From the IMG/VR virus record IMGVR_UViG_3300025598_000024, positions 41,160 through 105,159 of that record: a stretch of 64,000 bases of DNA, one strand, 5' to 3'. The position numbers and the translations under genes are program-made. Within the stretch, counting starts at the first letter, position 1; each line of letters opens with the position of its first letter. Source of the DNA: a virus. Of this stretch, positions 13,132-45,690 are shown piece after piece. The notes under the pieces are model-generated. The model had not been told where the DNA came from, did not search any database, and saw only the letters and a list, made by a program, of their open reading frames with translations.

Positions 13132-13174
13132 TACCCTGAGGGGGACTTGAACCCCCACCCCATGGAGTATACCA
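13132..13174 (-). pseudogene. 3' half of a split class II (Leu-type) tRNA
   Basis: TGG + 15-nt variable region + GGGGG-TTCAAGT-CCCCC + TCAGGGT + A73; begins immediately after the HNH stop. Confidence 0.85.
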
Positions 13175-13624
13175 TTATTTTTTCTTGTGTGCTGCTGTTT
13201 TCAATGCATGGCAGTTAGGGCACAAAATTTGTAAGTTCTCCAAAGAATTATCAAAATGATCACTGTTGATATGGTCTAGCTCTAGCGGTGCTGGTTGCCC
13301 CAACCATTCTGTTATCCCACAGACCTCACAAATGGCTTCTTTAATACCCTCCTTGATAAGTTTTAACCTTAACTTCCCAGAATGGATTGGCTGCCTATTA
13401 GATAGGTACTCTTCGATATCAACTTTATTCCTGGCTGGTCTTCCTTTTGTAAAGCTTTTGCCAACAAAATGTGAGTAATCAATACCTGCTTTTACAGCCC
13501 TATTTTTTAAATGGGTTTGTGACCCAGTCATTGGTTTTACGCCTATTTTTCTGCATGTATCAGCCCATGTAGTAGATGAAGCCACTGCATCAGCCAACTG
13601 TTGATCTGTATATCTATGTTTCAT
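13175..13624 (-). CDS. HNH homing-type endonuclease
   Basis: CEVCG...LELDHINSDHFDNSLENLQILCPNCHA; AT-rich. Confidence 0.92.
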   Translation of the reverse strand: MKHRYTDQQLADAVASSTTWADTCRKIGVKPMTGSQTHLKNRAVKAGIDYSHFVGKSFTKGRPARNKVDIEEYLSNRQPIHSGKLRLKLIKEGIKEAICEVCGITEWLGQPAPLELDHINSDHFDNSLENLQILCPNCHALKTAAHKKK

Positions 13625-13678
13625 GTATACTATAACACCACGTATACACTTTTACATTGTTTACATTGTTTTATATTG

Positions 13679-13762
13679 TGCCCCCGGTCAGACTCGAACT
13701 GACAAGACCTTACGGTCATTACCTCCTAAGGGTAACGTGTTTACCTATTTCACCACGGGGGC
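13679..13762 (-). tRNA. tRNA-Leu(TAG), nested inside the split tRNA
   Basis: GCCCCCG/CGGGGGC, TTACC-CT-TAG-GA-GGTAA, long variable arm, A73. Confidence 0.92.
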
Positions 13763-13802
13763 ATATCAAACCTGGCGCGTCTGCCTATTCCGCCATCAGG
13801 GC
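13763..13802 (-). pseudogene. 5' half of a split Leu-type tRNA
   Basis: GCCCTGA TG GCG-GAATAGGCAGA-CGC G CCAGG TT TGA TA; the acceptor strand pairs with TCAGGGT at 13133-13139. Confidence 0.85.
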
Positions 13803-13806
13803 TCTG

Positions 13807-13880
13807 TGCCCCAGGTGGGATTCGAACCCACACTACAAGGATTTTAAGTCCTCCTCCTCTGCCTGTTGGGATACTAGGGC
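13807..13880 (-). tRNA. tRNA-Leu(TAA) with short variable loop
   Basis: GCCCTAG/CTGGGGC, GAGGA-CT-TAA-AA-TCCTT, 5-nt variable loop. Confidence 0.9.
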
Positions 13881-13885
13881 TTCTG

Positions 13886-13967
13886 TGGGCCAGGTAGGAT
13901 TCGAACCTACGTAGCTTTACGCGGCGGTTTTACAGACCGCTTCCTTTGGCCGCTCGGACACTGACCC
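13886..13967 (-). tRNA. tRNA-Tyr(GTA)
   Basis: GGGTCAG/CTGGCCC, GCGGT-CT-GTA-AA-ACCGC, long variable arm. Confidence 0.93.
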
Positions 13968-13978
13968 ATTCTACTGCG

Positions 13979-14052
13979 TCGGAATGACAGGATTCGAACC
14001 TGCGACATCTGCGTCCCAAACGCAGCGCTCTACCAAGCTGAGCTACATTCCG
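13979..14052 (-). tRNA. tRNA-Pro(TGG)
   Basis: CGGAATG/CATTCCG, CTGCG-TT-TGG-GA-CGCAG. Confidence 0.93.
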
Positions 14053-14062
14053 TATACTGTTG

Positions 14063-14133
14063 TCCTCCTGGAGGGTACCGCCCCCTCTTTTCAGGATTAA
14101 AAGTCCCGTACATCACTTTAATGTTTCAGGAGG
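14063..14133 (-). tRNA. non-canonical tRNA-Lys(TTT)
   Basis: CCTCCTG/CAGGAGG, ACAT/ATGT D stem, CGGGA-CT-TTT-AA-TCCTG, GAGGG/CCCTC T stem; but A8, no D-loop GG, T loop GGCGGTA. Confidence 0.7.
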
Positions 14134-14605
14134 TTAAATATTCTTCTATTGATTCTTTCTTTTTTTCATACCATCCTAGTCTGATGTTGCAACTATAGCA
14201 CAGTAACCCTCTAACGCTACCAGTTTTGTGATCGTGATCAACACAAAAGTTTTTACCAGTAGAGCACCTATCGATCTTGCATATTCCACAGCGATGGTTT
14301 TGACCCTCTAGCATACTGTAGTAATCAGCAATAGTCAAACCAAATTTTCTAGTAGCAGATTTTATATTAAAACAATTTCTACAATATGCATTTTTATTGT
14401 TATCACCTTTGTAGGCACCACAGTATAAACATGGTTTTGGTGATGGTACATAACTGGAGTACCTAACTGAATGCTGTGCTCTAGCTGCGCAGCTTTGAGA
14501 ACAGTATAATCCTATATTCTTTTTTACTTGATAGGCATATCTTTTATATACATTGCTACAGTCAGTTCTACTGCATATTACTTGCTCTGATGTTCTAGTA
14601 GTCAT
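14126..14605 (-). CDS. endonuclease VII-family homing-type endonuclease
   Basis: CGIC...VDHDHKTGSVRGLLCYSCN..LG; N-terminal YCSQSC Zn motifs; AT-rich; AGGAG RBS. Confidence 0.88.
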   Translation of the reverse strand: MTTRTSEQVICSRTDCSNVYKRYAYQVKKNIGLYCSQSCAARAQHSVRYSSYVPSPKPCLYCGAYKGDNNKNAYCRNCFNIKSATRKFGLTIADYYSMLEGQNHRCGICKIDRCSTGKNFCVDHDHKTGSVRGLLCYSCNIRLGWYEKKKESIEEYLTS

Positions 14606-14650
14606 AGTCACTCTCCTGTGGCTACTAGTGCAAGTACAAGTATGAATTAA

Positions 14651-14678
14651 ATCACTCTACCAACTGAGTTACAGGGGC
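14651..14678 (-). pseudogene. 5' remnant of a canonical tRNA (acceptor strand + D arm)
   Basis: GCCCCTG TA ACTC-AGTTGGTA-GAGT G, then no anticodon or T arm. Confidence 0.75.
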
Positions 14679-14995
14679 ATGTAATCGTACTCCCAATCAT
14701 CCATGCTACCCAACCTTACCAGATGCATGCAAGGATCGTCACCTCTATCCCAGGCCTGCTCTTCAGTGGGATGCACAGGGTACCCATCGTGTGTGTTGCA
14801 GAACTGCTCACTACAGTAGCCGTTCTCCACGCCATAGTTCAACCACTGCTCAAAGTCCATCCTGGCATCTCGCTGCTCTTGACAGGTGCAGTACCAGTCA
14901 AAGTGAATACGGAATGCCTGTCGCCTGCAGTTCAGGCAGTGCTTGACGCCTTCGCTGTCTGTGTCTACTTCAGTCTTGTGTACCATTTCTACCAA
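14669..14995 (-). CDS. hypothetical Cys/His-rich protein
   Basis: FEQWL.YG...GYCS...CNTHDG.P....GDDPC.H.VRL. Confidence 0.6.
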   Translation of the reverse strand: MVEMVHKTEVDTDSEGVKHCLNCRRQAFRIHFDWYCTCQEQRDARMDFEQWLNYGVENGYCSEQFCNTHDGYPVHPTEEQAWDRGDDPCMHLVRLGSMDDWEYDYMPL

Positions 14996-15624
14996 CGCCC
15001 CGGTTCATAATAGTTAAAAAGAACTGCGATATCATCACAGTATATCACGTTCTCTTTGGTTTGATAAGCAATAACCTCATCTATAAATATACCATCACCC
15101 GATGGGTGAAGCGGTACCCTGAACTGTTTGAGAATCTTTCCAGTCAGAAAGATCTGTTCAATACTAACATGATCTCTCCTGGCCGACTCAGGGGTTGCGT
15201 TAAGACGTGTCGGAGGGTGAGCGCTCTCTGGTGCATGACCTTCAGGCAGCCTGTACCCTCTTTCCATTGCTGTGATAATAACGTCAGATGCTTTACCCTG
15301 TGACTTGACAAGATTTATTCTGTCTGCTAGGTCTTTGAAAAACGTAGGGTCGTATGCATCATCATCATTTAAAAAGCACCAGTACTCATCGTCTTTAACA
15401 TGATTAGCAATAAACCAATTTAATGACGTGTTGCTACGCGCCCAAAATTCTGTTGCATCATTGGGGCAACGATACGATATAATCCAGTCCTCATCGAACT
15501 GAAGACCAAATCCAAGATCATCATCAACTATTACGTGCCAGATAACGTCATGCATACTGAGCATATGTTTTAGAAGAGGTATGTTTTTGAACCTCATCAT
15601 TGGCGTTACAACATTAAAACGCAT
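14989..15624 (-). CDS. GT2-like glycosyltransferase
   Basis: VVTP, FLNDDD, DG.FI, NY. Confidence 0.7.
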   Translation of the reverse strand: MRFNVVTPMMRFKNIPLLKHMLSMHDVIWHVIVDDDLGFGLQFDEDWIISYRCPNDATEFWARSNTSLNWFIANHVKDDEYWCFLNDDDAYDPTFFKDLADRINLVKSQGKASDVIITAMERGYRLPEGHAPESAHPPTRLNATPESARRDHVSIEQIFLTGKILKQFRVPLHPSGDGIFIDEVIAYQTKENVIYCDDIAVLFNYYEPGRW

Positions 15625-16844
15625 CAGTGCCCGATGATCTCAAACTTTGGGCAAGGCACAATAAACTTGCCACCATCCCGCAAGTAATCCTGTTCACGCG
15701 CCACAAATTCATTGATGAAGTGCCATGGTAATACCAGCAGGTAGTCGGGCTTGGCTGCTCGCATCTCTTCTTCACTGTAGATAGGGATCTCAGTGCCTAC
15801 CGTCTTCAGGCCAAACTTGTAGTGGCTACGCTCAGCGATACCATCAATAAGAGTGTGATCTAGACCAAAGTATTGTAGAAGGGTGTTACCCTTGGTGCTT
15901 GCACCATAACCCCAGACGGTCTTGCCCTCAGCTTTTGCCTGCTTGATAAAGCTATAGGTCTGCTCCTTGAGATCCAGCAAACGCTGATAGAACTCGCTCC
16001 ATACTTCAGGAGTGTTATACCCCTTTGCTTCTTCATACTCTAGCAATGAGTTGACACGGTAGTTGCACACATCACGGTATGGTTGAGTACCAAAGCGTGT
16101 GATATCAGCTCCACTCTTCATGGCATAAACACGGAAAGAACCACCGTTGATATCATTCAGCTGAGTATCTATGATCTGAAAACCGTTCTCATTAAACAGT
16201 TTCTTTATCGATGCTAGCGAATGATAGTACAGGTGCTCATGACAAATATTATCAAAAGCCATCTGCTCAATCATGAGTGGTGTGTAGCTCATCTGCACAA
16301 CCAGCAGTCCATCATCATTCATGACGCTGGCAAGGTCCTGTAGAAATACGTCAGGGTGCTCCAGGTCATAAAACATTGCAATGATAGTAACCACGTCAGC
16401 CTTGGTGTGACCAAGGGGCGAGTTGCGATATGCTTCAGCAGAAAAATAATCCTGAATAATCAGATCAGCATGATGTGAGGACTCTGCCTTGAACGTGTCA
16501 TCTACCGGATCGATACCAATTCGGGTATATCCACCAGGAACAAAGCTGAGCAGGGTGCCATCATTACAAGCGATATCTAGCCACACAGGTGATTCAGGCA
16601 TCTTGTATGTTGAATGAATAGACTCTACAATGCCCTTAAGCTCATTAGTCATTGTTGCATTAATGCCAGACCGGTACCAGTAGCGACCATACATAAACTC
16701 GCCGGGTGTTACTTCTTCCAGCCGTGCAGCCTTACGTTGTTCATCAAACACCATCTTTAGACCGACGCGACCAGCACGGTAGTCTTCACCAGGCTTGACG
16801 AAGTCTGATACGTACAATTCACCTAGGTCGAATAGTTCTTTCAT
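15624..16844 (-). CDS. NDP-sugar C-methyltransferase
   Basis: LDIACNDGTLL, GIDP, FDNICHEH..Y, GYGASTKGNTLLQ, LPWHF. Confidence 0.88.
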   Translation of the reverse strand: MKELFDLGELYVSDFVKPGEDYRAGRVGLKMVFDEQRKAARLEEVTPGEFMYGRYWYRSGINATMTNELKGIVESIHSTYKMPESPVWLDIACNDGTLLSFVPGGYTRIGIDPVDDTFKAESSHHADLIIQDYFSAEAYRNSPLGHTKADVVTIIAMFYDLEHPDVFLQDLASVMNDDGLLVVQMSYTPLMIEQMAFDNICHEHLYYHSLASIKKLFNENGFQIIDTQLNDINGGSFRVYAMKSGADITRFGTQPYRDVCNYRVNSLLEYEEAKGYNTPEVWSEFYQRLLDLKEQTYSFIKQAKAEGKTVWGYGASTKGNTLLQYFGLDHTLIDGIAERSHYKFGLKTVGTEIPIYSEEEMRAAKPDYLLVLPWHFINEFVAREQDYLRDGGKFIVPCPKFEIIGH

Positions 16845-17458
16845 ATGTTAACTTCTCCTAATATATCGGTACGAACGTACCAGTCTTCATACGGCTTCTG
16901 ATAATATAGAGGGTTTGTATCCAGGCATGGTGCATCTTCTACAACACGAGTAAACCCATTAGTGGTTAAAAGATCATATAGTTTATTTTTGTTTGTGTCT
17001 CCCCAGCAGTACAGATTGTGTTCTACCGTTAATGCTCCGATCTTCCAGCGATAGAAGTCAAAGCACTTTAATATATCATACTCATGACCCTCTACGTCAA
17101 TAGATAAATAGTCAATAAACTCAGGAGCATCATACTGTTCGAGTACAGTATTCAACATCATGCATGGAACTTCTGATCCATACTCAGAGATAGAATCACT
17201 ACCAAAACGTATGGTGCCATCATAATCACTTACGGCTGCAAACACATTTTGACTGGTTCTATTCCCAACAAGCCTGTCGTAGGCACCACGATTCGCTTCG
17301 ATACAGATACCAGTCCAACCTAGTTCTTTTTCTAGGAAAGCTGTGTTGCTGCTCTGCAAACCATCATATGCACCAATGTCTAAGAACGTACCTCTACGTT
17401 TTCCATTGAATATCTTATTTACCCATTCATCCTGACCGGACTGAGCGTAGTATGTCAT
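16841..17458 (-). CDS. FkbM-family methyltransferase
   Basis: FLDIGAYDG..SNT, GICIEAN, IDYLSIDVEGHE, VEHN. Confidence 0.9.
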   Translation of the reverse strand: MTYYAQSGQDEWVNKIFNGKRRGTFLDIGAYDGLQSSNTAFLEKELGWTGICIEANRGAYDRLVGNRTSQNVFAAVSDYDGTIRFGSDSISEYGSEVPCMMLNTVLEQYDAPEFIDYLSIDVEGHEYDILKCFDFYRWKIGALTVEHNLYCWGDTNKNKLYDLLTTNGFTRVVEDAPCLDTNPLYYQKPYEDWYVRTDILGEVNI

Positions 17459-18375
17459 AATAGCTCCAGCACTCTGTTAACAGTAGAGCAGACAGACTCA
17501 TCGCTCCACTCAGATTTTAGCACTTCGTTCACTGTCGTTCCCTGATTGATGATTGATTCAAGGCTGAAATTATCACAATTAATCTCTGGGAATCTGTTGT
17601 TGATATGCCTGAACATGTCAGAACTATTAACAGCAAATGGTGAAGTTGTCCTTGGCATATAATCAATAACTGATGACAATCCATTGCCAGGAAGTGGATG
17701 GTATGTGAATACATTAATATCATTAGCACATAGAAAATCCATAAGCTGCTGATCTGTAACGAACTCAGTATTGATGTTTAGCTGAATGCCTGGTTTGATA
17801 ATCGCAGCACGACAACTATCAATCACTGAAGAAAGCAGGCTACCATTAGGATCAATAAATTCTGACCGTGTCATGTGTAAGTTAATAACTGCCTCATCGT
17901 ACTGGTCTTGCACAAGATTGCATAGATCATTAAAGCCCTTGTGGTGGAACGCCAGACCAAAGCTACCAATATTTATAATGCTATTCTTTACTCTTCGGTT
18001 CTCTAATGTTACATCTGGCATTGGTCTTGGCAGTGCGAACTGCATGCTCGATTCGTTCGCAGTCATATCAGTCATCAAGAATGCATCATGCTTCAAGTGC
18101 ACTGGCAGGCCAGCATCATGGTAAACATAGACCTGCTTGGCATTGATCTGGTTTGTTAATGTGGTTGTTACCCAGTTAGCAGTAATATTGTTATAGTTAT
18201 AGATGACCACATCAGGTTGATAAATATTTAATTCTTCAAGAAAAAAATCTTGCGACTGTGTCTCAATAAGATAGAAACGGTCTTCATCAGAGTTACACAG
18301 TATTTCAAAAAGCCTGTTTCCATACTGATATACACCACAACCTTTCTGGTAGTGGTTGACTAGCATCACCTTCAT
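17455..18375 (-). CDS. putative GT-B glycosyltransferase
   Basis: CGVYQYG, IGSFG..HKGF, NDINVF.Y, GLSSVIDY; cluster context. Confidence 0.6.
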   Translation of the reverse strand: MKVMLVNHYQKGCGVYQYGNRLFEILCNSDEDRFYLIETQSQDFFLEELNIYQPDVVIYNYNNITANWVTTTLTNQINAKQVYVYHDAGLPVHLKHDAFLMTDMTANESSMQFALPRPMPDVTLENRRVKNSIINIGSFGLAFHHKGFNDLCNLVQDQYDEAVINLHMTRSEFIDPNGSLLSSVIDSCRAAIIKPGIQLNINTEFVTDQQLMDFLCANDINVFTYHPLPGNGLSSVIDYMPRTTSPFAVNSSDMFRHINNRFPEINCDNFSLESIINQGTTVNEVLKSEWSDESVCSTVNRVLELL

Positions 18376-19139
18376 TACAAACCTTTAATAAGATGTTTTA
18401 ATATGTGTTGATTATTACGAATGTACTCAGGGTATCTCTCATCGATTGGCACAACCTCGAGAACATTGTTTCGACCAAAGATATCGGCATTGTTATTAAT
18501 ATTATCTTCTATACTGTTCAACACACCGTCATGGTTGAACTCACTATGGGCATAAGAAATGATCTTTTTTCTGACGAGATCTTTACCACCCAAAAATGAC
18601 CAGTGCCAGCCAGCATCTTGCACCATAATCGGATGATAGTTAATGATACCCCAATCTCCTCGTAACGACTGCAGGTCTATAGAGTTATAGTTGCTTATGC
18701 TTAGAGCTCGAGTGCCTGACCACTGTTCTGTTGTATTCACATTGTTTAAATAGTACTGATGCATGGTCTGTTCAAAAGCATAGTAATATTGTGGGTCCCA
18801 AAGCTCATCTCTGATAATCTTTAGCTTTACAGGGTCAGGCACCTCATCAATATCACTGATCATAACCATATCATCATGGCTGTATTCACTAAGATCAACC
18901 TTGTATTGACGTTGATAGTTTTCTCTACCCCAGTTGTCCAGGCCGTCAGGGAATCTTATTGTAATCAGATGGACACGATCATCAGGGTATGATTGTAAGC
19001 ATCCCTTATCATCACCCTGGTGAGTCTTATCTGCTTGGATGATGTAAAAAGCATCAACGATATCATTCAATATATTAATCCTGAGATCAAGCATCTCAAT
19101 CTCATTATTGAACATTGCAACATCAATGATCTTTGGCAT
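18375..19139 (-). CDS. GT17 (beta-1,4-GlcNAc transferase-like)
   Basis: FNNE..L.LR...L...VD.F, RENYQR, ISDIDEVP, AGWHWSF. Confidence 0.88.
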   Translation of the reverse strand: MPKIIDVAMFNNEIEMLDLRINILNDIVDAFYIIQADKTHQGDDKGCLQSYPDDRVHLITIRFPDGLDNWGRENYQRQYKVDLSEYSHDDMVMISDIDEVPDPVKLKIIRDELWDPQYYYAFEQTMHQYYLNNVNTTEQWSGTRALSISNYNSIDLQSLRGDWGIINYHPIMVQDAGWHWSFLGGKDLVRKKIISYAHSEFNHDGVLNSIEDNINNNADIFGRNNVLEVVPIDERYPEYIRNNQHILKHLIKGL

Positions 19140-19142
19140 GAT

Positions 19143-20414
19143 CTATCGCTTTTTAAGCAGGTTAGCAGTCTTTGACTTGTTTGCAGCACGGTTGAATACA
19201 TCGATCCACTGCTTGCATACCTCTTGCCAGGTGTTATGCTTGACCCACTTGTATGCATTCTCCGCACGCTGCTTGGCTTGAGCAGGATTGTTCTTGATGA
19301 ACTCGATTGCATCAGCTGCAGCCTGTACATCCATGAGCGGACGCATGCGCTCGTTATCATTCTCCTTGATGATCCAGTGGCTGGGAGTATGTCCACTGGG
19401 TACTCGCCAGCCTCTGTCATCGCCCAAGATCTCAGGAACACTGGTGTTATCTGGTGCTACTACTGGCAGCTTGGTTGCCATGGCCTCAGTGATTGTAAGG
19501 CCCCAACCCTCACCGTGTGTTGTAGTCAAGAAAACATCACTGGAATTATAGATGCTGTTCAACATCTCTATAGGGAAACCACTGTGCGCACTGAACTGCT
19601 GAGGGTTAGGGATTGTGAAGTCCTGCTCGAACTGAACACCAATAGACCTTGCCATCTCCAGCACGCTACCGCCAAAGTCTGTCTCCTGCATGTGCATGTA
19701 GAAGTAGATATCTTCGTGTCCACGATCCTTTAGCTCCTTTAAGATCATGAGGGTTCGTGAGATGTCCTTGCGCCCCTGGTTGCGGTTCACGTTTGTAACA
19801 ATAAACTTGTCCTGAAGCTGTGGTGGGAACACTGTGCTGCGGGCTGTGCGCTTTTGGACATCATGCAGAACGTAGAAGTCGCTGATGTTGGTGCCATGGT
19901 AGATTACATCCTGCTTGTCCGCCAGACTGCCAATGAACTTTCTGCTCTCTTCCTTGGCATACTCTGTGTATGCGACTGGGAAGTCAAAGGCAGCGACACA
20001 CTGAGTTACCCACTCTTCCCTGGGAGCACAGTCAAACGGGTAGTAGAAGATGGTGCTGAACGAATGTTGCTTGGTGCGCTGCAGCTCGAGTAGGTGCTGT
20101 ACGATTGGTAGCACAATGAATGTATCCTGAACAATGAACACAACATCGTAGTCGCCCTGGTTCAACAGGTCCAGGAACACCTGTCGGCCAAACACATCGC
20201 CGTATGGTCCCTGAGTGCGTAGTGCACTGATTGCTGGCCACAAACGGCCTGGCCACTTGTTTGTGTCATAAGGTCCACCATCATAGTTAACACCAACCAC
20301 ATCGATATCGTACTTGCCCGTAGCGTTAAGGTTGGTCATGATGTTACGCATGACCGTACCAAACCCGGTGCCACATGCATAGTCACCCCATGCAAGCACT
20401 CGTGTTTTACTCAT
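19143..20414 (-). CDS. GT4 glycosyltransferase
   Basis: TGFG.V, IYHG, NRNQ.RK, EGWGL...EAMA...PVV; GGAG RBS before ATG 20414. Confidence 0.9.
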   Translation of the reverse strand: MSKTRVLAWGDYACGTGFGTVMRNIMTNLNATGKYDIDVVGVNYDGGPYDTNKWPGRLWPAISALRTQGPYGDVFGRQVFLDLLNQGDYDVVFIVQDTFIVLPIVQHLLELQRTKQHSFSTIFYYPFDCAPREEWVTQCVAAFDFPVAYTEYAKEESRKFIGSLADKQDVIYHGTNISDFYVLHDVQKRTARSTVFPPQLQDKFIVTNVNRNQGRKDISRTLMILKELKDRGHEDIYFYMHMQETDFGGSVLEMARSIGVQFEQDFTIPNPQQFSAHSGFPIEMLNSIYNSSDVFLTTTHGEGWGLTITEAMATKLPVVAPDNTSVPEILGDDRGWRVPSGHTPSHWIIKENDNERMRPLMDVQAAADAIEFIKNNPAQAKQRAENAYKWVKHNTWQEVCKQWIDVFNRAANKSKTANLLKKR

Positions 20415-39145: not shown

Positions 39146-39171
39146 GGTGCGATACACTATTATATCGCACC
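39146..39171 (-). promoter_or_regulatory. inverted repeat enclosing a TATAAT -10 box
   Basis: GGTGCGATA-TAATAGTG-TATCGCACC upstream of the chaperone RBS. Confidence 0.55.
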
Positions 39172-39184
39172 TACCCTGGGCGTA

Positions 39185-40192
39185 CTAGTTCTTGTTGAGG
39201 ACTCGTACGTATGGCTTCTTTACTCTGCGGCTACGGATGTCAACACTGGCGTAGTACTGACCATTAGTTCCGCTGACAGCAGTGGTAAGAGTGGTACCGA
39301 ACACGTTGTTGGCCAGTGCACTGCCAGTGACAACGTTGCTGCTACTTACAACAGTGGCTTGTGGTGCGAACGTCTTGGCTGCACCAACACCACTGGTCAT
39401 GTCAACACCGACTGTGCTACCAGCTGCAGTGCCGCTTGGTACAACAACGTTGGGGCAAACACCCTCGATCTGTACCCAACCAAAGTTACCTGTTGGGATA
39501 CTGACCAGAGCAACTCCAGAGAATCCACCCTGCTTGGTACCGATAGCAGTAACGTAGCCACCCTGCGTGCTGGTTCCACTTACGTTGCTGCTGACGTTGT
39601 ATGGTGTACCGATAGCATCTTGTGTGACCAGGTAGGTAGCCCCACTTGCAACCGTGATGTAACGGTTCTGCTCGTCGTACCATACTGTTGCCCAGCCACC
39701 GCTAATGGTGCTGGCAGTTCCGTTGTAAGTCAGTGCATAGCGAGCACCGTCAGGACCAACCAGTGTCTGGTTTGCTGCAGCACCGCTAAGCGTGGCTGCT
39801 GGCAGACCAATACCAGTGTTGCTACCAGCTGTACCACCAGCGTCATACCCCTGAGCGGCAAAGCCTGCGATGCTGAACGAGCTCAGGTTAGGACTTACCT
39901 GGGTGAGCAGGTTATTGAAGCTGATTCCGCTGCCAGCAGCCTGCAGGTTAAGACCATTAGAGGATTGTGCGAGCACGAATGTGCCACTAGCAGTAGTTAC
40001 GCTACCGGTTCCAGTGTCGTCCAGGTTGACGTTAACAACCTTGATGATATTCTGGCGAGCACCCAGGCTGATCTTGCTGAATGTCTCTGCGTCTACTGTG
40101 TACTGAACACCTGGAAGCATCTTTCTGTGGTCAGGCAGGATAGCTTGACCGACTCCAGGTTGTAGCTGAATTACAAATGAACGAGCAGCCAT
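39185..40192 (-). CDS. virion structural protein (G/S/T-rich)
   Basis: composition; FGWVQ..G motif; position after the tube gene. Confidence 0.55.
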   Translation of the reverse strand: MAARSFVIQLQPGVGQAILPDHRKMLPGVQYTVDAETFSKISLGARQNIIKVVNVNLDDTGTGSVTTASGTFVLAQSSNGLNLQAAGSGISFNNLLTQVSPNLSSFSIAGFAAQGYDAGGTAGSNTGIGLPAATLSGAAANQTLVGPDGARYALTYNGTASTISGGWATVWYDEQNRYITVASGATYLVTQDAIGTPYNVSSNVSGTSTQGGYVTAIGTKQGGFSGVALVSIPTGNFGWVQIEGVCPNVVVPSGTAAGSTVGVDMTSGVGAAKTFAPQATVVSSSNVVTGSALANNVFGTTLTTAVSGTNGQYYASVDIRSRRVKKPYVRVLNKN

Positions 40193-40208
40193 TTTATGTT
40201 ACCTTTCC

Positions 40209-40682
40209 TTAGAGGAGTTCTTTTCTTGAACGATATACGATACGGATAGTCTTTGGGATTGTCATGCTCTGGATGTTGATCTGCTCATCGATAGTTACGT
40301 TGGTTACAACACAACCCTGATAAACAATCTTACGTTGTGTGCCATCTGGCTTGTTGATAACCTTTACACAGGTTACTTCACCCTGGGCCAGCTGAGCTTT
40401 GAATACATCCAGAAGGTCACTAGCAGTAGAGAAATTCCCACCGAGCTGTGCCCATACTTCGGCATTCCATTGTTCCAGGAACATGATTTCTAGAGTCCCA
40501 GCACTCAAAGCGATTGGGAACGCAATCTCGATTGGGTATGGGCTGTCTAGAGGTTGAATAGGCTGAGGTTGCTGAACAGGCTGTGGTCCAACCTCACTGA
40601 TCATCTGTGCATAAATCAGTGGCTGACCATTGTATACAAAGGCTGTATACCCACCACCTACACGGAATTTTGAATTAGCCAT
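40209..40682 (-). CDS. tail tube protein
   Basis: 157 aa directly after the sheath; Y.GC.V...DE. Confidence 0.75.
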   Translation of the reverse strand: MANSKFRVGGGYTAFVYNGQPLIYAQMISEVGPQPVQQPQPIQPLDSPYPIEIAFPIALSAGTLEIMFLEQWNAEVWAQLGGNFSTASDLLDVFKAQLAQGEVTCVKVINKPDGTQRKIVYQGCVVTNVTIDEQINIQSMTIPKTIRIVYRSRKELL

Positions 40683-40690
40683 GTGTTCTC

Positions 40691-42226
40691 CTAGTAGACT
40701 ACGAAGTTGCTCTGAGCGTTACCATAAACTACTTGACCGGTCTGCGTGTTAAGGCTGACATTGGCCTGGATGTAATTGATTGGGAACGTCGGTGCATATT
40801 GGAAGCTGACAGTAATTGTTGTAGGCGTAGCTGGATTGACTGCGAAGCTAAGGTTCTGATAGCCCTGAATCAGGCCATTGCTCAGAGCATTAGTAAGAGT
40901 CGCCTGTACAGTAGCCAGTGCAGCAGCACTTGTATTCTTTGTGAGAGGCCCACCAACCAGATAACTGTTGATCAGGTCAGTCCTTACAAGCTGTGCCAGT
41001 CTGTCACCAATTGCACTGATGGAAATCTCTTGTGTCAACCAGTTTTGTACATTGGTGGTTAGCCCATGCAGTACCCAGAAGTTTCCATCTGTCTTCTTGC
41101 GAACAACAAGAACTCCATAAGGCAAATAACTTGTCTGTGCATCTGTCAGGTTGATCTGGTTGGGGATGTCATTGAAACCAAGCACCTGCTTGTTGGTGAT
41201 TGGCGTGCTGATGTCCGGCTGCTGGCCTACAAACAAACCAGCTAGTGCGGCAGCAACATAGTAACCAGCAATGTTAATTGTAGCGTTGCTCAAACCGTTT
41301 GTGGTGTTAAGACCAGGATTAAAGTTAACTACAGGAGGGTAGATAACGCTAACTCTGGAACTGTTAAAACCATTGGCAAGAGCCTGGTAACTAGCTACTG
41401 TGGTCTGAGCATTGGTGCCATCTACACCCAGGAAAGCTCTCTGATAGATACCATTGTTAGCCTGAGTGTTGATGTAAGAGTTGATAGCATAAGCTACAGT
41501 ACCTGCAGTTACACCGGTGATAACACCACTGGATGTAAGTGAGTTGAGAGGTACAATAACATCAGCAGCAGTGTTGGACAGGTAGATTGGGTTGCTACCG
41601 CTAGTGGCTACAGTCAATGTGTTAGCCCAGTCACTGGGTTGAGCAGAGCCACTGTTCGATACACGAGCTACTGGTACGATACTTACAATACTAGCGCCGT
41701 TCTGGAACGCTAACTGGCTTGCAAGAACTGCTGGGTTGACGATAGTTGTACCACTGATTGCTGGCCCAATAGCACTGGATACAGCGTTCTGGCTGGTGTA
41801 CCTACCGTATGCCCCCCAATTGTGACCGTACTGTAAGGTTAGCGTGCCACTGGGAAGTGCGTTAACTCCAGTTGCTGTAACACCAACTGTTGTAAGGGTG
41901 CTGATGCCGTTAGCAGTACTAATATTAAAGTTGTATCCGTATGTTCCTGTTACAGTCGTACCGCTAATGCCGCTAGCCCAGGTGAGAGTAAACCCTGAAT
42001 AGCTAGCATAAGTACCGGTCGATGTGGTGTTTACCGTGGGAACAGTCAACTGACCTAGTGGGATACCACTGGTTGGAACTGGTGCATAGAAAGTATCAGT
42101 CTGACTACCTGGAGTGGGCTGGTCAGCTACAATAGCGATGCTAAGGCTGGTGGGGCTAACGCTGGTCAGCGCAGATGTTGTCTGCGTTACATACACACCA
42201 GGCACTTGGTAGTTAGAAATAGGCAT
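40691..42226 (-). CDS. contractile tail sheath protein
   Basis: YQVPGVYV start, AAALAG, P.TNK...GF, GLTT, EIS, P.FPINYI. Confidence 0.85.
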   Translation of the reverse strand: MPISNYQVPGVYVTQTTSALTSVSPTSLSIAIVADQPTPGSQTDTFYAPVPTSGIPLGQLTVPTVNTTSTGTYASYSGFTLTWASGISGTTVTGTYGYNFNISTANGISTLTTVGVTATGVNALPSGTLTLQYGHNWGAYGRYTSQNAVSSAIGPAISGTTIVNPAVLASQLAFQNGASIVSIVPVARVSNSGSAQPSDWANTLTVATSGSNPIYLSNTAADVIVPLNSLTSSGVITGVTAGTVAYAINSYINTQANNGIYQRAFLGVDGTNAQTTVASYQALANGFNSSRVSVIYPPVVNFNPGLNTTNGLSNATINIAGYYVAAALAGLFVGQQPDISTPITNKQVLGFNDIPNQINLTDAQTSYLPYGVLVVRKKTDGNFWVLHGLTTNVQNWLTQEISISAIGDRLAQLVRTDLINSYLVGGPLTKNTSAAALATVQATLTNALSNGLIQGYQNLSFAVNPATPTTITVSFQYAPTFPINYIQANVSLNTQTGQVVYGNAQSNFVVY

Positions 42227-42298
42227 ACAATCTCCTTCAATGCTTTGTACAACAAACAGCTGCTTTTACAGTGTTGGTTGAGAGATATTTGGTTAAAC

Positions 42299-42967
42299 TT
42301 ATGATGTAGTCGTCTTGGTAGAGTCGTAAAACAGCTCGCTTGGCACATAGGCAGTGCCGCTTGTAACAACCTCTGTAATCTGTGGCACTTGGTAGTCATA
42401 TTTACTAGTGTAGAAGTCACCAATGCAGCTTATTCTTACGCTAGCCTCATAGGTGATATCATCAGTGCTCCAAGGAGTACCGCTTGTGATGCTGTCACCC
42501 AGCGGGGTATAGGTATCGGGCTGCAGTGTCATACCAACAAGGTCATTGTTGTATATGCTGTTGTAGAATGCTGAGCTTGCCGGACTGCTACCGTTCATTA
42601 GTATAAGGTTTGTTATACTATCCCACAGTCTGTCTCGCTCTTCGCTATGCATGGCCATGATCTGTAGATCTATGCTGCCTTCAAAATAACCAGTACGAGT
42701 TACATTGTCTGCGGGATATGTTTGACCATTGATGACAATTCCATTTGTATCTGTGCTGTATACATCTGGCTGCAGACCAGACCACTGGACTTTCCCAGGT
42801 CTGAACTGCACAAGCACTGCTGGCCACTGAATAACTTCCAGCGGATAATTAATCGTGATGCTGTTGGGCACAAGATCCAGGCTGGTATTAACAGGAGAGC
42901 TCGCCAGTTGCTGGAACCCAGCATTAAGTGCTTCTACTATTGCTGTTTTAACGGCTGTTACAAACAT
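42299..42967 (-). CDS. tail terminator/neck protein
   Basis: YP....WPA.LV, A..SEERD; position. Confidence 0.6.
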   Translation of the reverse strand: MFVTAVKTAIVEALNAGFQQLASSPVNTSLDLVPNSITINYPLEVIQWPAVLVQFRPGKVQWSGLQPDVYSTDTNGIVINGQTYPADNVTRTGYFEGSIDLQIMAMHSEERDRLWDSITNLILMNGSSPASSAFYNSIYNNDLVGMTLQPDTYTPLGDSITSGTPWSTDDITYEASVRISCIGDFYTSKYDYQVPQITEVVTSGTAYVPSELFYDSTKTTTS

Positions 42968-43488
42968 TAGTAGGTCTTTCGCCCAGCATTGATAATATTA
43001 TTAATGGTTTCACCAAGCTTGGTTTCTTGAATAATCCTGACGGGGTCATCCACAGTCATGCCGCGTTCCCACTCTTGTGTGCTTCTTTCTACAGCACGCT
43101 CGATAAAGAATTGACCAGGCTCAGCCTGTTTTATCCATAGTGGCTTGCCATCTGTCAGGCTGCCATCGTCGGCAGATCTGGTTATGATGGGTAGCCTACC
43201 GACATCATTGCGGTTTATTCTTCTAAACGCCAGGCTGCCATCAGCTTCACGAATAGGAATAACACGATCAGAAACAGTTGTGATAGGCCGCTCTGGCTCT
43301 CCCTGATCGTACTTTAAAATGTACTGTGCGCTCTCTGGCACAACAATATCTACGATGCCATCCTGCCAGCTGGGCATGATCTGGTTGACTGCGTTAGCAG
43401 TCTTTTTAGGTGCAGTTGTTTTGATGATCTCAACAGCACGCCTGGATATTTTCTGTGTTTCACTGGCTGGTAATGGTATGTTGTTCAT
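42967..43488 (-). CDS. neck/tail completion protein
   Basis: AP.KT...W....PG..FIERAV; position. Confidence 0.5.
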   Translation of the reverse strand: MNNIPLPASETQKISRRAVEIIKTTAPKKTANAVNQIMPSWQDGIVDIVVPESAQYILKYDQGEPERPITTVSDRVIPIREADGSLAFRRINRNDVGRLPIITRSADDGSLTDGKPLWIKQAEPGQFFIERAVERSTQEWERGMTVDDPVRIIQETKLGETINNIINAGRKTY

Positions 43489-44168
43489 ATTATCGGCACG
43501 TTATAGTATGGGTGTGTGGTTGGCAGATTGTAAAGCGTAGTGAACTGATTGACTATTTTTGTTGTGTCATAGCTGATCCCTGGACCAGTCCTGACAGTTT
43601 GAACGTTAACTGAGCTCACTTCAAAACGGTCACCCAGCGCGGTTGGTGTGTCACCATCCCAGGAGAGCACTCTGACCAGCAGATCGCCAACCCGGATCTC
43701 TGGATACCATGACATCTGAACAGTTGGATTGTCTCGCCAGAACTGACCGGTGCTGATGTTGGCGCGGATCTGTGGAGTATCCGCAGCCAGTGTGTACAGG
43801 TGGTAGCAGGTTGTTTTGAAACCACCATTGAATGTGGTGCCATAGCAGTTCGGGCAAAAGCTATTGCCTGACTGCTTATAAACATTGCTCACACGAGACT
43901 GTACAGAAGCATTGGGATTGGTAGGATCAACACTGTCCTGGCACTGCTGACAGTAGCCAACCAGACCCAGCGCAGCATCTTCTGCACGCCAGAGCTGTCT
44001 TACAATAATCTGTTCACCGAACCACTGCAGAGTCTCGTCATGAAAGCGCTGCTGATTAATCTCAGCATAGATATCTCTTTGCTTTACTACAAGCAAAGGG
44101 CTTTCTTTCTGGTAGTAAAGATCTCCCTGCTGCACTGGTGGCAGTGGAGATGGGTCAATACCAGACAT
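43485..44168 (-). CDS. head-tail joining (stopper-like) protein
   Basis: CQQC...CPNCYGTTF.GG, P.IR.GDL.V; position. Confidence 0.6.
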   Translation of the reverse strand: MSGIDPSPLPPVQQGDLYYQKESPLLVVKQRDIYAEINQQRFHDETLQWFGEQIIVRQLWRAEDAALGLVGYCQQCQDSVDPTNPNASVQSRVSNVYKQSGNSFCPNCYGTTFNGGFKTTCYHLYTLAADTPQIRANISTGQFWRDNPTVQMSWYPEIRVGDLLVRVLSWDGDTPTALGDRFEVSSVNVQTVRTGPGISYDTTKIVNQFTTLYNLPTTHPYYNVPII

Positions 44169-44171
44169 TGT

Positions 44172-44798
44172 TTATACGCCACCCATGTTAGCTGCGAACT
44201 CAGCGACTTCATTTTCCCAAACCACGCGGGCGGACCAACCCTGCTCTGCATACCAATCAATAAGATCTTGCGGGTTCTCGCCGCGATGCCAGTAGGTTCC
44301 CCAAACTTCTACAATCTCACGGGTGTCACGTTTAACATAATCGGGAATATGTACGCCAACTTTAGGGTTACCAATAAAGTAACGTTTATCCTGTGTGCTA
44401 ACGTAGCCAAGTGGTTCTAATACCGGCTTTAGAGAAAGCTCTACTTTAGAAGATTTGTTGTTCGAGCCATAGACATTAAGAAACTTACCTTCCTTATGAA
44501 GGCGAACATTCTTTTCAGACATCTTCTTGCGAAAACTATAATCATATTTATGCTTTGCTAGGCGCTTAAGGTTGCGTGCACGCTGTTCTTCAAACGTAAC
44601 TGTGCGGATATAATGCCCTGCAACGAAACGATTTTGGCGATACTTATTTGTTCTAACAGTTTCACCACAACCACAACCGCATAAAACTTCACGGTCCTGG
44701 CATCCTGGGCATGTTTTACGGTCTGGACCACCACGAGTTTTAATCTGTTCTTTTTTTTCTTTACAAACACGGCACACATATTGGAGAGTAACTGGCAT
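44172..44798 (-). CDS. free-standing endonuclease (Zn/NUMOD-like N-terminus, DUF559/Vsr-like PD-(D/E)xK C-terminus)
   Basis: LCGCGCGE...RFVAGH; SKVE; IPD....IVEV.G.YWH...GW....VWE. Confidence 0.8.
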   Translation of the reverse strand: MPVTLQYVCRVCKEKKEQIKTRGGPDRKTCPGCQDREVLCGCGCGETVRTNKYRQNRFVAGHYIRTVTFEEQRARNLKRLAKHKYDYSFRKKMSEKNVRLHKEGKFLNVYGSNNKSSKVELSLKPVLEPLGYVSTQDKRYFIGNPKVGVHIPDYVKRDTREIVEVWGTYWHRGENPQDLIDWYAEQGWSARVVWENEVAEFAANMGGV

Positions 44799-44799
44799 A

Positions 44800-45690
44800 T
44801 TAAACTCCTCCAAGGTTGGCTGAAGCGTACTGAAAATGCGGCCTTGCTGGATTGATAAACATTCGTGGGATAAGACCACCAGCAACCAGCAGGCTTCGCT
44901 TGCTTCCTACCATGAAGCTACGCTTCATCTGACGCAGCTGCTTGTCAGCGATTTCCTTGTCGAACAGATATAGCTGCCACCAGCGTTGGTAGTAGTCACG
45001 ACGATCCATCCAGGCAGCATTCATACCGTTGGGTGTGGGCTGCTCGATGTAGTTACGAGCGATGTGTTTCAGAAAGTGAGCATAGGTCTGGCTGGCCAGA
45101 ACGCCGTACCAGTTACTGGGGAAGATCACCGCAGCATTAGCACCTATCTCATAGGCTGGATTGAATACTGGTTGAAACTCAAAATTGATATAGTCAATGG
45201 CTTCTGTGCTCATTACCATGGCAACTTCTTCGTACATCAAGAAACCACTCTGCTGCATCTCCTGCAGGTAAGGGCCACCACTGGTGCTGTCAAAACTTTT
45301 GTCCAGTCGGTGTACTATTCCTGCTGCCAGCTGACGCTCATCATAACTCAGATTGCTCCAGTATGGCATCTGATCTGTTATGACCAGTTGATCAGTGTAC
45401 TGCCTGTCACTGCCATTCACTGTGTATTGCCAGTTGACGTTATAGTTGCCCTGGATAGCAGTCTGTGAGCTGTCCAACATATACTGGAAGGTCCCAGTAG
45501 ATTCTTGAGTAGCGTATGTGCCACTGGGAACTATTGTCAGACTACCGTCAGTGCTGGTTATGCTCAGACTTACATCAGGAAAAGTATTACCGCTCACCGT
45601 GATAAGATCAGGGTCAGTTAGAACCCCGTTAGAATAGGTCATTATACCAACGGGTTCTACTGCATACTGTGGGAACGGACGTACTCTCAT
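44800..45690 (-). CDS. head-to-tail adaptor-like protein
   Basis: position; D.FDS..GGP.L..., DRRDY..RW. Confidence 0.6.
   Translation of the reverse strand: MRVRPFPQYAVEPVGIMTYSNGVLTDPDLITVSGNTFPDVSLSITSTDGSLTIVPSGTYATQESTGTFQYMLDSSQTAIQGNYNVNWQYTVNGSDRQYTDQLVITDQMPYWSNLSYDERQLAAGIVHRLDKSFDSTSGGPYLQEMQQSGFLMYEEVAMVMSTEAIDYINFEFQPVFNPAYEIGANAAVIFPSNWYGVLASQTYAHFLKHIARNYIEQPTPNGMNAAWMDRRDYYQRWWQLYLFDKEIADKQLRQMKRSFMVGSKRSLLVAGGLIPRMFINPARPHFQYASANLGGV

What the first reader, a model, noticed from the sequence alone, without database searches (positions are those of the whole stretch)
13132..44820. Recurring strategy: all three free-standing endonucleases (three different folds) sit beside a recoded copy of the target they broke
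HNH/tRNA-Leu (13.1-13.8 kb), EndoVII/tRNA-Lys (14.06-14.68 kb) and DUF559-like/adaptor C-terminus (44.17-44.82 kb) each show a remnant of an essential sequence on one side and a diverged functional version on the other. In every case the endonuclease stop codon abuts or overlaps a target-derived piece. Inference: splicing-independent 'break-and-replace' homing cassettes acting on both RNA genes and protein termini, which would drive turnover and divergence of phage tRNA arrays. The portal intein solves the same problem by protein splicing.
Basis: inference. Interest (0 to 1): 0.85.

Follow-up and report, generated by a model that had tools for sequence, protein, structure and literature searches.

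The report
Homing nucleases beside duplicated target pieces
Three selfish DNA-cutting genes in this uncultured phage each end inside sequence of the gene they sit against, and two of the three lie beside a spare working copy of what was interrupted, a layout known from fungal mitochondria and yeast but little described in phages.

Summary
The anatomy is real at all three places, but the unifying story holds for only two.

(1) Vsr-like nuclease, 44172-44798. A relative without the insert (L001) shows the native junction. The nuclease ORF's last 7 codons, its stop and the next gene's ribosome site are the original end of the upstream virion gene. A re-spelled copy (NMGGV to NLGGV) now ends that gene and provides the nuclease's ribosome site. 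Four diverged nuclease alleles and 13 of 14 database homologues keep the same tail. Non-nuclease inserts at the same junction have no duplication.

(2) HNH, 13175-13624. Two tRNA-Leu halves with 7/7 pairing acceptor strands flank an intact tRNA-Leu(UAG) plus the HNH. The break follows U34. A 41%-identical HNH in another phage sits in a group I intron at that position.

(3) EndoVII, 14126-14605. This case is not supported. The odd tRNA-Lys(UUU) downstream belongs to a widespread, covarying tRNA family found without any nuclease. The upstream fragment matches Asn/Thr tRNAs.

"Three folds" is really two, because HNH and EndoVII are both His-Me fingers.

The principle is known from fungal mORFs, yeast WHO elements and T4 SegB. 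This scan has noted the same layout on other phage and archaeal DNA. Cleavage and self-immunity remain untested.

The parts
13768..13802 (-). 5' half of an older type-II tRNA-Leu gene: acceptor GCCCTGA, Leu-type D arm, anticodon stem CCAGG, loop TTT. It is followed by 5 nt of filler (13767-13763).
   Evidence: Sequence. The 22-nt D-arm word recurs in intact tRNA-Leu genes of three other viral contigs.
13678..13762 (-). Intact type-II tRNA-Leu(UAG), lying inside the old split tRNA-Leu.
   Evidence: ARAGORN. Rfam tRNA 59 bits.
13175..13624 (-). HNH homing endonuclease, 149 aa, T5 F-TflIV-like.
   Evidence: Pfam HNH 1.1e-7. phrog_10822 5.7e-42. Catalytic region 71% identical in DNA to the Serratia phage Slocum gene annotated as TflIV-like.
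13132..13174 (-). 3' piece of the old tRNA-Leu: TGG, variable arm, perfect T arm, acceptor TCAGGGT, A73. It starts directly after the HNH stop codon.
   Evidence: Sequence. Exact GGTTCAAGTCC. Acceptor pairs 7/7 with 13802-13796. Two dinucleotide changes against G002.
14654..14678 (-). Orphan 5' fragment (acceptor plus D arm) of a canonical tRNA. It also supplies the last three codons and the stop of ORF 14669-14995.
   Evidence: Sequence. Its 24-nt word is exact in 11 other viral contigs, always in tRNA-Asn(GTT) or tRNA-Thr(TGT) genes.
14126..14605 (-). Endonuclease VII-type (His-Me finger) free-standing nuclease, 159 aa.
   Evidence: Pfam Endonuclease_7 5.9e-19. phrog_2914 3.2e-20.
14063..14133 (-). 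Non-canonical tRNA-Lys(UUU): D loop TAAAGTG, T loop GGCGGTA. The EndoVII stop TGA is its positions 6-8.
   Evidence: The minimum-energy fold is a cloverleaf. Family alignment A2: 98% of cells paired, 16 of 21 pairs with compensatory change, 0 of 500 shuffles as good. Model R1 scores it 93 bits. Bacterial-mode ARAGORN and the Rfam tRNA model miss it.
44800..45690 (-). 296-aa virion gene (PHROG 2791, upstream of the sheath module; 'adaptor' is unproven). Its last 8 codons (44800-44823) are the re-spelled copy, and their GGAGGAG forms the nuclease's Shine-Dalgarno site.
44172..44798 (-). Vsr-like PD-(D/E)xK homing endonuclease, 208 aa, with an N-terminal zinc ribbon. The real start is the ATG at 44798, 6 nt after GGAGGAG.
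   Evidence: Foldseek: I-Bth0305I probability 0.99, Vsr 0.92-0.98, but E about 0.04. The profile aligns PDyV...GtyWH...GW..vvWE to Vsr. Present or absent among relatives.
44172..44195 (-). Native 3' end of the 296-aa gene (AANMGGV*), now the nuclease's last codons and stop. It carries the GGTGG ribosome site of the next gene.
   Evidence: Near-identical in DNA to the empty site of L001. The same tail occurs in every nuclease allele.
43485..44168 (-). Downstream virion gene (PHROG 2806). In nuclease-free relatives its start lies 1-3 nt after the native stop.

Best explanation
The phage carries three free-standing homing-endonuclease genes. Each was inserted into, or flush against, sequence the phage needs, and each reading frame runs on into host-derived DNA and uses a stop codon found there.

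Case 3, structural-gene junction. A Vsr-like nuclease sits between two copies of the last ~8 codons of the upstream virion gene.
- The downstream (original) copy ends the nuclease ORF and keeps the ribosome site and close coupling of the next gene.
- The upstream copy completes the virion gene and serves as the nuclease's ribosome site.
- No intron or intein is therefore needed.

Case 1, tRNA array. An HNH of the T5 TflIV lineage lies, together with an intact tRNA-Leu(UAG), inside an older tRNA-Leu. That tRNA is broken after U34, the classical tRNA-Leu group I intron site. The spare tRNA makes the disruption harmless.

Case 2. The EndoVII-type gene truncated a canonical tRNA and abuts an intact, pre-existing non-canonical tRNA-Lys. 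There is no replacement relationship between the two.

Inferred, not shown: spread by double-strand-break repair with co-conversion of flanks, as shown for T4 SegB. The duplications would be scars of an imprecise first insertion that were kept because they preserve gene function and expression.
For: Case 3
- Empty site in L001 versus occupied site in L002 and the window.
- Four allele classes, 48-99.6% identical as proteins, in backgrounds whose 296-aa gene is only 72-98% identical to the window's. All end in ...WENEV..FA[AV]NMGGV*.
- 13 of 14 database homologues, down to 44% identity, keep A[VAS]N[ML]GGx. The one exception has a NUMOD3 motif and a different tail.
- WhiB-like and other inserts at the same junction in L003, L015, L021, L026 and L043 have no duplicated tail.
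- Ribosome-site geometry read.

Case 1
- 7/7 acceptor complementarity and the anatomy.
- Full-length HNH homologues (34-47% identity by tblastn) all lie in tRNA arrays.
- Their stops abut or overlap a type-II tRNA in L078, L081, L082, L085 and Slocum.
- L078 independently shows [24-nt tRNA-Leu 5' fragment][HNH][intact tRNA-Leu(tag)], with 20 of 24 positions identical and 0 of 200 shuffles as good.
- L079 carries a 41%-identical HNH (60 of 147 aligned residues) inside a group I intron (RF00028, 67.8 bits) in the anticodon loop of tRNA-Leu(UAA).

Case 2
- Family evidence for the odd tRNA.
- Identity of the fragment.

Precedent
- SegB homing in a tRNA cluster, and the segB stop codon abutting tRNA-Arg (PMC2330249).
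Against: - No cleavage site is known for any of the three enzymes.
- G002 lacks 432 nt of the HNH (window 13210-13641) but has the same split tRNA-Leu. The HNH may therefore have entered an already split site. The retained 31 nt continue the HNH frame and the junction has only 3-of-4-nt microhomology, so deletion versus empty site is unresolved.
- Only identical copies of the EndoVII gene were found, so its mobility is not shown.
- L001 is only about 88% identical in DNA, so it is not a near-isogenic empty site.
- DNA identity between the window and L016 shows no sharp cassette boundary.
- The nuclease alleles at the junction are homologous, so their shared tail may go back to a single insertion.
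Confidence: 0.65

Rival explanations
1. All three are 'break-and-replace' cassettes: each nuclease cut the sequence now seen as a remnant, brought a diverged copy that it cannot cut, and this drives turnover of tRNA arrays and protein termini.
For: - The anatomy of cases 1 and 3.
- The upstream copy departs from the otherwise conserved ATGGGTGG in three of four nuclease alleles: CTTGGAGG twice and ATGTCGGG once.
- L078 repeats the remnant-plus-replacement layout.
Against: - Case 2 fails.
- The L042 allele is hardly re-spelled.
- The native copy survives intact next to the nuclease, so immunity would have to come from the separation of half-sites. This is untested.
- G002 shows the split without the HNH.
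Confidence: 0.2
2. The remnants are ordinary debris of recombination and decay in a fast-evolving tRNA array. The nucleases merely occupy permissive spacers, so the association is incidental.
For: - An intact tRNA-Val (11386-11460) and a partial copy, identical from tRNA position 8 onward (about 66 nt, ~9810-9877), flank a 422-aa glycosyltransferase/methyltransferase gene with no nuclease.
- In the tRNA region, fragments flank 2 of 2 nuclease genes and 1 of 8 other genes. My own hypergeometric calculation gives p about 0.07.
- More distant relatives (G004, G005) have small protein genes, not tRNAs, between the flanking genes.
Against: - This cannot explain case 3, where the duplication is precise, in frame and tied to the nuclease in every allele.
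- The HNH lineage abuts type-II tRNAs in at least five unrelated contigs and is intron-encoded in tRNA-Leu in a sixth.
Confidence: 0.15
3. The overlaps exist mainly for expression control, not as relics of a target. Ending inside a tRNA lets RNase P processing remove the stop codon and throttle the nuclease. Ending on the native stop keeps translational coupling of the next structural gene.
For: - In T4, processing of tRNA-Arg is proposed to cut segB mRNA between its last codon and its stop. The same was suggested for the T5 F-Tfl genes (PMC2330249).
- The EndoVII TGA lies at tRNA positions 6-8. HNH homologues overlap tRNA 5' ends by 6-10 nt (L078, L082, Slocum) or end 1-2 nt before them (L081, L085).
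- Ribosome-site motifs sit in both tail copies.
Against: - This does not explain why a second copy of the target piece exists.
- It is compatible with the best explanation rather than exclusive of it.
Confidence: 0.4
4. Case 1 descends from a group I intron in tRNA-Leu that carried the HNH and later lost its ribozyme. The neighbouring tRNAs took over decoding.
For: - L079 has exactly that intron-plus-HNH arrangement at U34/A35 of tRNA-Leu(UAA).
- The window's old tRNA-Leu breaks after TTT, which are positions 32-34.
Against: - No Intron_gpI match in window 8500-16000 at E up to 10.
- The HNH stop touches the 3' piece, leaving no room for a ribozyme.
- An intact tRNA gene inside an intron would be unusual.
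- DNA similarity to L079 is limited to the catalytic region.
Confidence: 0.15

Closest known systems
Mobile endonuclease ORFs (mORFs) of fungal mitochondria that make 'gene hybrids': Allomyces macrogynus atp6; Glomus atp6, atp9, cox2, nad3 (PMC3630166)
   Same: - The endonuclease ORF is inserted in the 3' end of a gene.
- An inserted C-terminus completes the gene, and the native C-terminus is displaced downstream of the ORF.
- The native copy is closer to nuclease-free relatives than the inserted copy is.
- The ORF can be in phase with the native piece.
   Different: - This is a phage structural-gene junction.
- The nuclease is Vsr-like, not LAGLIDADG or GIY-YIG.
- The duplication is only about 24 nt.
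- The displaced copy is still used: it supplies the nuclease's last codons and stop and the next gene's ribosome site.
WHO elements of Torulaspora/Lachancea yeasts, which home into FBA1 and replace its 3' end without splicing (PMC7282813)
   Same: Splicing-independent homing that replaces the end of an essential gene and leaves old ends downstream.
   Different: - WHO elements are eukaryotic and nuclear, with an intein-derived nuclease.
- Allele-specific cleavage is shown there. Here cleavage is untested.
T4 SegB and the T5 F-Tfl HNH nucleases in tRNA gene clusters (PMC2330249; Akulenko 2004 as cited there)
   Same: - Free-standing nuclease genes inside phage tRNA arrays.
- SegB cuts tRNA genes and spreads together with neighbouring tRNA genes.
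- Its stop codon abuts a tRNA.
- The window's HNH resembles the TflIV-like gene of Serratia phage Slocum.
   Different: - SegB is GIY-YIG.
- The papers I read describe no split tRNA with a substitute tRNA inside it.
Group I intron of tRNA-Leu(UAA) carrying a homing endonuclease
   Same: Same target position (after U34) and a homologous HNH, seen in L079.
   Different: The window has no ribozyme. A whole spare tRNA takes the place of splicing.
I-Bth0305I and Vsr (Vsr-like PD-(D/E)xK nucleases)
   Same: Best structural matches of the third nuclease. The PD..., G..WH and GW..VWE motifs align with Vsr.
   Different: - Scores are weak: Foldseek E about 0.04 and profile E about 0.9.
- This protein has N-terminal zinc ribbons.
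- It is free-standing, not in an intron or fractured gene.

Membership tests
Free-standing homing endonuclease gene | Nuclease domain of a family known to include homing enzymes | tested here: met
   HNH 1.1e-7 and Endonuclease_7 5.9e-19. The third enzyme is Vsr/I-Bth0305I-like by fold and motif, with weak scores.
Free-standing homing endonuclease gene | Present or absent at the same locus among related genomes | tested here: met
   Vsr-like: absent in L001 and many others, present in L002, L016/38, L022/23/25 and L042. HNH: 432 nt absent in G002 and, judging by tRNA spacing alone, in L073. EndoVII: only identical copies were found, so this feature is not shown for it.
Free-standing homing endonuclease gene | The enzyme cuts the nuclease-free allele and the gene is copied into it | not testable with these tools
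   Needs cleavage and homing assays.
mORF/WHO-type 'replace the gene end' element | Duplicated gene end, with the native copy displaced beyond the nuclease ORF | tested here: met
mORF/WHO-type 'replace the gene end' element | The inserted copy is more diverged from nuclease-free relatives than the native copy is | tested here: met
   39 of 42 versus about 28 of 39 identical to L001, counted from the alignment. However, background divergence is about 12% and allele L042 is nearly unchanged.
mORF/WHO-type 'replace the gene end' element | The inserted copy resists cleavage | not testable with these tools
   No cleavage site is known.
   The anticodon of the old tRNA beyond U34 cannot be read.
   The fragment matches Asn/Thr tRNAs exactly. 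By my own count it is only 10 of 25 identical to the odd tRNA-Lys. That tRNA's family exists without nucleases.
Group I intron-encoded endonuclease | Ribozyme core flanking the ORF | tested here: not met
   No RF00028 match in 8500-16000 at E up to 10. The feature is met in L079.
Canonical bacterial-type tRNA (for 14063-14133) | Conserved G18G19 in the D loop and T54-psi55-C56 in the T loop; detection by standard models | tested here: not met
   D loop TAAAGTG and T loop GGCGGTA. No Rfam tRNA match at E up to 10 and no bacterial-mode ARAGORN call. The cloverleaf itself is strongly supported by covariation.

The most novel reading that the evidence does not exclude
Phage tRNA arrays and tightly coupled structural-gene junctions are colonised by a general class of splicing-free homing cassettes. 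In this class the nuclease gene travels with a substitute for the piece it displaces: a whole tRNA, or the last codons of a gene together with the ribosome sites. The tRNA-Leu member arose from an intron-encoded HNH by exchanging the ribozyme for a spare tRNA. Such cassettes would be a main driver of tRNA-array turnover in phages.
Probability: 0.3. Interest if true: 0.7.

Novelty: new variant of a known kind. Interest (0 to 1): 0.5.

Why it matters
The finding shows how selfish nucleases can invade essential, tightly packed phage genes without an intron or intein. They duplicate just enough of the target to keep both the gene and the expression signals working.

The structural-gene case is unusually clean, with an empty site, four diverged alleles and non-nuclease controls at the same junction. 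It gives a defined pair of substrates for a cleavage test.

The tRNA-Leu case links a free-standing nuclease to an intron-encoded relative at the same nucleotide. This bears on how homing genes move between intron-borne and free-standing life styles.

It also warns annotators. ORF ends of such nucleases, and short 'pseudo' tRNA pieces beside them, are host-derived.

Tried and rejected
- DNA search of the phage collection with both regions found only tRNA-level matches and the Slocum HNH. The 43400-45800 query found nothing.
- Searches with the 211-aa neighbour and with ThyX found no relatives other than G002.
- EndoVII relatives in the viral and metagenome collections were identical copies or distant catalytic-domain matches without tRNAs nearby. 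No empty site for case 2 was found.
- G003-G005 are too distant. They have small protein genes where the window has its tRNA/nuclease block.
- I first thought divergence rose sharply at the end of the 296-aa gene. Binning showed it lies within the gene-wide range, so I dropped that as evidence of a co-conversion tract.
- No sharp cassette boundary appears between the window and L016, L022 or L042.
- ARAGORN's mitochondrial mode calls the odd tRNA, but it also gives 10-18 calls per 64 kb of random sequence. That call alone was therefore discarded as evidence.
- Upstream duplicates of the downstream tRNA were sought in L081, L082, L085 and Slocum and not found.
- The literature searches found no phage report of a tRNA split by a nuclease-plus-tRNA insert. 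The library is incomplete, so this is not proof of absence.

Full report
**Setting**

The window is the right-hand 64 kb of a 105-kb IMG/VR virus record. It carries a sheath-type tail module, thyX, nine tRNA genes called by ARAGORN and an intein-bearing 1127-aa gene. All features discussed here lie on the - strand.

**Case 3: structural-gene junction, 44172-45690**

The 296-aa gene (PHROG 2791; its role as 'adaptor' is unproven) ends ...YASANLGGV*. The following ORF ends ...EFAANMGGV*, 3 nt before the next gene's ATG.

A protein search of viral contigs gave 44 related loci.
- In L001 the two virion genes are adjacent. The first ends ...YASANMGGV*, and the next gene starts after 3 nt.
- The window's downstream copy and the start of the next gene match L001 at 39 of 42 positions. 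The upstream copy matches at only about 28 of 39 (AGC>TCA, ATG>CTT, GGT GGC GTA>GGA GGA GTT). Both counts are mine, from the alignment.

So the nuclease ORF's last seven codons and its stop are the original end of the 296-aa gene. The gene itself is now completed by a re-spelled copy.

The real nuclease start is the ATG at 44798. It lies 6 nt after GGAGGAG, which is part of the re-spelled Gly-Gly-Val codons.

In nuclease-free alleles the native tail (ATGGGTGGAG..TAGTGTG) holds the ribosome site of the next gene, whose start lies 1-3 nt after the stop. The displaced copy is therefore not a dead relic. It keeps the next gene's initiation context. This last step is inference.

The arrangement holds across alleles.
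- Nucleases 99.6, 91, 72 and 48% identical to the window's (L002; L016/L038; L022/23/25; L042) all end ...WENEV..FA[AV]NMGGV*.
- So do 13 of 14 database homologues, down to 44% identity.
- The one exception (P0014) has a NUMOD3 motif and another tail.
- The upstream copy reads NLGGV, NLGGA or NMSGV in three classes. It is almost unchanged in L042.
- Other genes inserted at the same junction have no duplicated tail. These are WhiB-like genes of 118-134 aa in L003, L015, L021 and L043, and unknown genes of 145 aa in L026 and 152 aa in L043.

The enzyme has N-terminal zinc ribbons and a C-terminal domain. The AlphaFold model has mean pLDDT 74. Its best matches are the I-Bth0305I homing endonuclease (probability 0.99) and Vsr (0.92-0.98), but at weak E-values. 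The family profile aligns PDyV / GtyWH / GW..vvWE to Vsr. 'DUF559-like' is therefore roughly right, and 'Vsr-like' is more exact.

Three caveats apply.
- L001 is only about 88% identical in DNA across the gene, so part of the 're-spelling' is background divergence.
- No sharp cassette boundary is visible.
- The alleles may all descend from one insertion.

**Case 1: HNH and tRNA-Leu, 13132-13802**

Reading, the elements run in this order:
1. The tRNA(taa) gene ends near 13806.
2. GCCCTGA-TG-GCGGAATAGGCAGACGCG-CCAGG-TTT follows at 13802-13768. This is an acceptor strand, a Leu-type D arm, an anticodon stem and the first three loop bases.
3. Five nt of filler.
4. An intact 85-nt tRNA-Leu(tag) at 13762-13678.
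5. A 53-nt spacer.
6. The HNH gene at 13624-13175.
7. Directly after its TAA: TGG, a variable arm, GGGGG-TTCAAGT-CCCCC, TCAGGGT and A, ending at 13132.

Evidence that the two pieces are halves of one tRNA-Leu:
- The two acceptor strands pair 7/7, with one G.U.
- ARAGORN accepts 143 of 672 artificial joins as full-span tRNAs.
- The 22-nt D-arm word occurs in intact tRNA-Leu genes elsewhere.
- The T-arm motif is the only exact match outside the called tRNAs.

One old tRNA-Leu is therefore split at its anticodon loop by about 590 nt that contain a working tRNA-Leu and the HNH.

Context from relatives of the HNH:
- The full-length homologues (34-47% identity by tblastn) all sit in tRNA arrays.
- In L078, L081, L082, L085 and Serratia phage Slocum the stop codon lies between 10 nt inside and 2 nt before the 5' end of a type-II tRNA, Leu or Tyr.
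- L078 shows [24-nt tRNA-Leu 5' fragment][HNH][intact tRNA-Leu(tag)], with 20 of 24 positions identical and 0 of 200 shuffles as good.
- L079 has a 41%-identical HNH (60 of 147 aligned residues) inside a 670-nt group I intron (RF00028, 67.8 bits). By the usual splice-site rule the intron lies between U34 and A35 of tRNA-Leu(UAA).

The window's break follows TTT, the loop positions 32-34. That is the same place. The window has no ribozyme.

The weak point is G002, a phage 99-100% identical here. It lacks window 13210-13641, almost the whole HNH, yet it keeps the split tRNA-Leu and tRNA-Leu(tag).
- The 31 nt it retains continue the HNH frame and fall partly within the Pfam HNH match.
- The junction has 3-of-4-nt microhomology (ATAC/ATGC).
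- This favours a deletion.
- On the other hand, the window's C-terminal tail (LKTAAHKKK) is unlike that of the homologues (QTETYRGKN).
- An HNH that entered an already split site therefore cannot be excluded.

Next to the junction the two phages differ by two dinucleotide changes within 10 nt: 13163/62 in the variable loop and 13155/54 in the T stem. In the roughly 3.1 kb of surrounding sequence (14986-13642 and 13150-11400) they differ at only 7 positions. This local excess is unexplained. A repair or conversion tract, or target-site variation, could account for it.

**Case 2: EndoVII, 14063-14678**

A loop-anchored pattern search found the same odd cloverleaf in an unrelated viral contig (L100), between tRNA-Tyr and tRNA-Arg. 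It also found the cloverleaf in 10 of 13 hits in bacterial MAG contigs. Seven of these are Verrucomicrobiales, including one Akkermansiaceae; the others are Armatimonadota, Actinomycetota and Chloracidobacterium. Eight of the ten lie inside dense tRNA arrays; the Actinomycetota copy has three tRNAs nearby and the Armatimonadota copy has none called.

Only the loops were fixed by the pattern. The stems, which the pattern left free, pair in 98% of cells. Sixteen of 21 pairs show compensatory change, and 0 of 500 shuffles do as well.

None of these copies has an EndoVII, HNH or Vsr-like gene nearby. The TGA at tRNA positions 6-8 is present in 8 of the 12 aligned members (TCCTCTGAAGC). So the EndoVII frame simply runs into a pre-existing tRNA gene and stops there.

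The 24-nt word of the upstream fragment is exact only in tRNA-Asn(GTT) and tRNA-Thr(TGT) genes. EndoVII thus truncated some canonical tRNA and abuts an unrelated, intact one. It is not a remnant-and-replacement pair.

No empty site and no diverged allele of this EndoVII was found.

**General points**

- HNH and Endonuclease_7 are both His-Me finger groups (PMC5714182). Three families are involved, but only two folds.
- No further HNH or GIY-YIG gene is present in the record.
- A tRNA remnant also occurs without a nuclease. An intact tRNA-Val and a partial copy, identical from tRNA position 8 onward (about 66 nt), flank a 422-aa sugar/methyl-transferase gene.

**Comparison with what is known**

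- Replacement of a gene's 3' end by a mobile endonuclease ORF, with the native end left downstream, is documented for fungal mitochondria (PMC3630166).
- The same principle, with demonstrated allele-specific cleavage, holds for the yeast WHO elements (PMC7282813).
- T4 SegB is a free-standing nuclease in a tRNA cluster. It cuts tRNA genes at the T-arm motif and spreads with its neighbouring tRNA genes. Its stop abuts tRNA-Arg, with a proposed role of RNase P processing in limiting expression (PMC2330249).
- The present cases are phage variants of these kinds.
- What appears new is the use of the displaced tail as a working stop and ribosome site, and a whole substitute tRNA inside a split tRNA at the classical intron position.
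- Earlier notes of this scan report the same layout in other phages and in DPANN archaea. I did not test those notes.

**Verdict**

It is a new variant of a known kind, of moderate interest.

Noticed in passing
window 14063-14133 (-); L100:4440-4511; L102-L114: The odd tRNA-Lys(UUU) (D loop TAA(C)AGTG, T loop GGCGGTA) is a conserved family in viral and bacterial tRNA arrays, found mainly in Verrucomicrobiales MAGs. In the same bacterial arrays Ile(GAU), Asn(GUU), Gly(UCC) and Val(UAC) tRNAs also lack the GG D loop and the TTCRANY T loop, and carry AGCGTTA, GGCGGAA or AGCATTA instead. This looks like a whole class of 'alternative-elbow' tRNAs, and standard finders partly miss it. Possible drivers are escape from tRNA-targeting defences or from nucleases that read the T-arm DNA motif. 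Both are speculation.
   Followed up: partly
window 9810-9877 and 11386-11460 (-), cargo 9996-11264: An intact tRNA-Val(tac) and a 5'-truncated copy, identical from tRNA position 8 onward, flank a 422-aa glycosyltransferase/methyltransferase-like gene. This is a tRNA-bounded cargo cassette without any nuclease.
   Followed up: partly
window 13154-13163 versus L053 (G002): There are two dinucleotide differences within 10 nt of the tRNA-Leu 3' piece, beside the 432-nt HNH gap. The roughly 3.1 kb around it differ at only 7 positions. This local hypervariability next to the nuclease is unexplained.
   Followed up: partly
L079:1414-2172: A jumbo-phage contig (297 kb) carries tRNA-Leu(UAA) interrupted by a 670-nt group I intron that encodes an HNH 41% identical (60 of 147 aligned residues) to the window's.
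   Followed up: partly
L003:4893-5249, L015, L021, L026, L043 (same junction as window 44168-44800): Relatives carry other small genes at this junction (WhiB-like, or unknown). All begin with a shared N-terminal motif (M/V)(D/N)W(N/K)(Q/L/K)RYA. It may be a shared cassette boundary or a targeting tag.
   Followed up: no
window 13806-13880 (-): A 75-nt, type-I-sized tRNA with anticodon UAA, called 'Leu' by ARAGORN, has a weak D arm. Phage Slocum has a homologue, and similar short 'Leu' tRNAs occur in the Verrucomicrobial arrays. Its amino-acid identity is uncertain.
   Followed up: no
window 14986-16844 versus L053: The window and G002 are mosaic. They are 99.9% identical up to 14986. After that the 211-aa gene (14989-15624) is absent from G002, and the methyltransferase gene is only 82% identical. 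A recombination boundary therefore lies close to the nuclease-rich tRNA block.
   Followed up: no
window 58601-61984 (-): A 1127-aa frame holds an intein with a LAGLIDADG domain (Pfam 4.8e-15) and HINT/intein splicing domains.
   Followed up: partly
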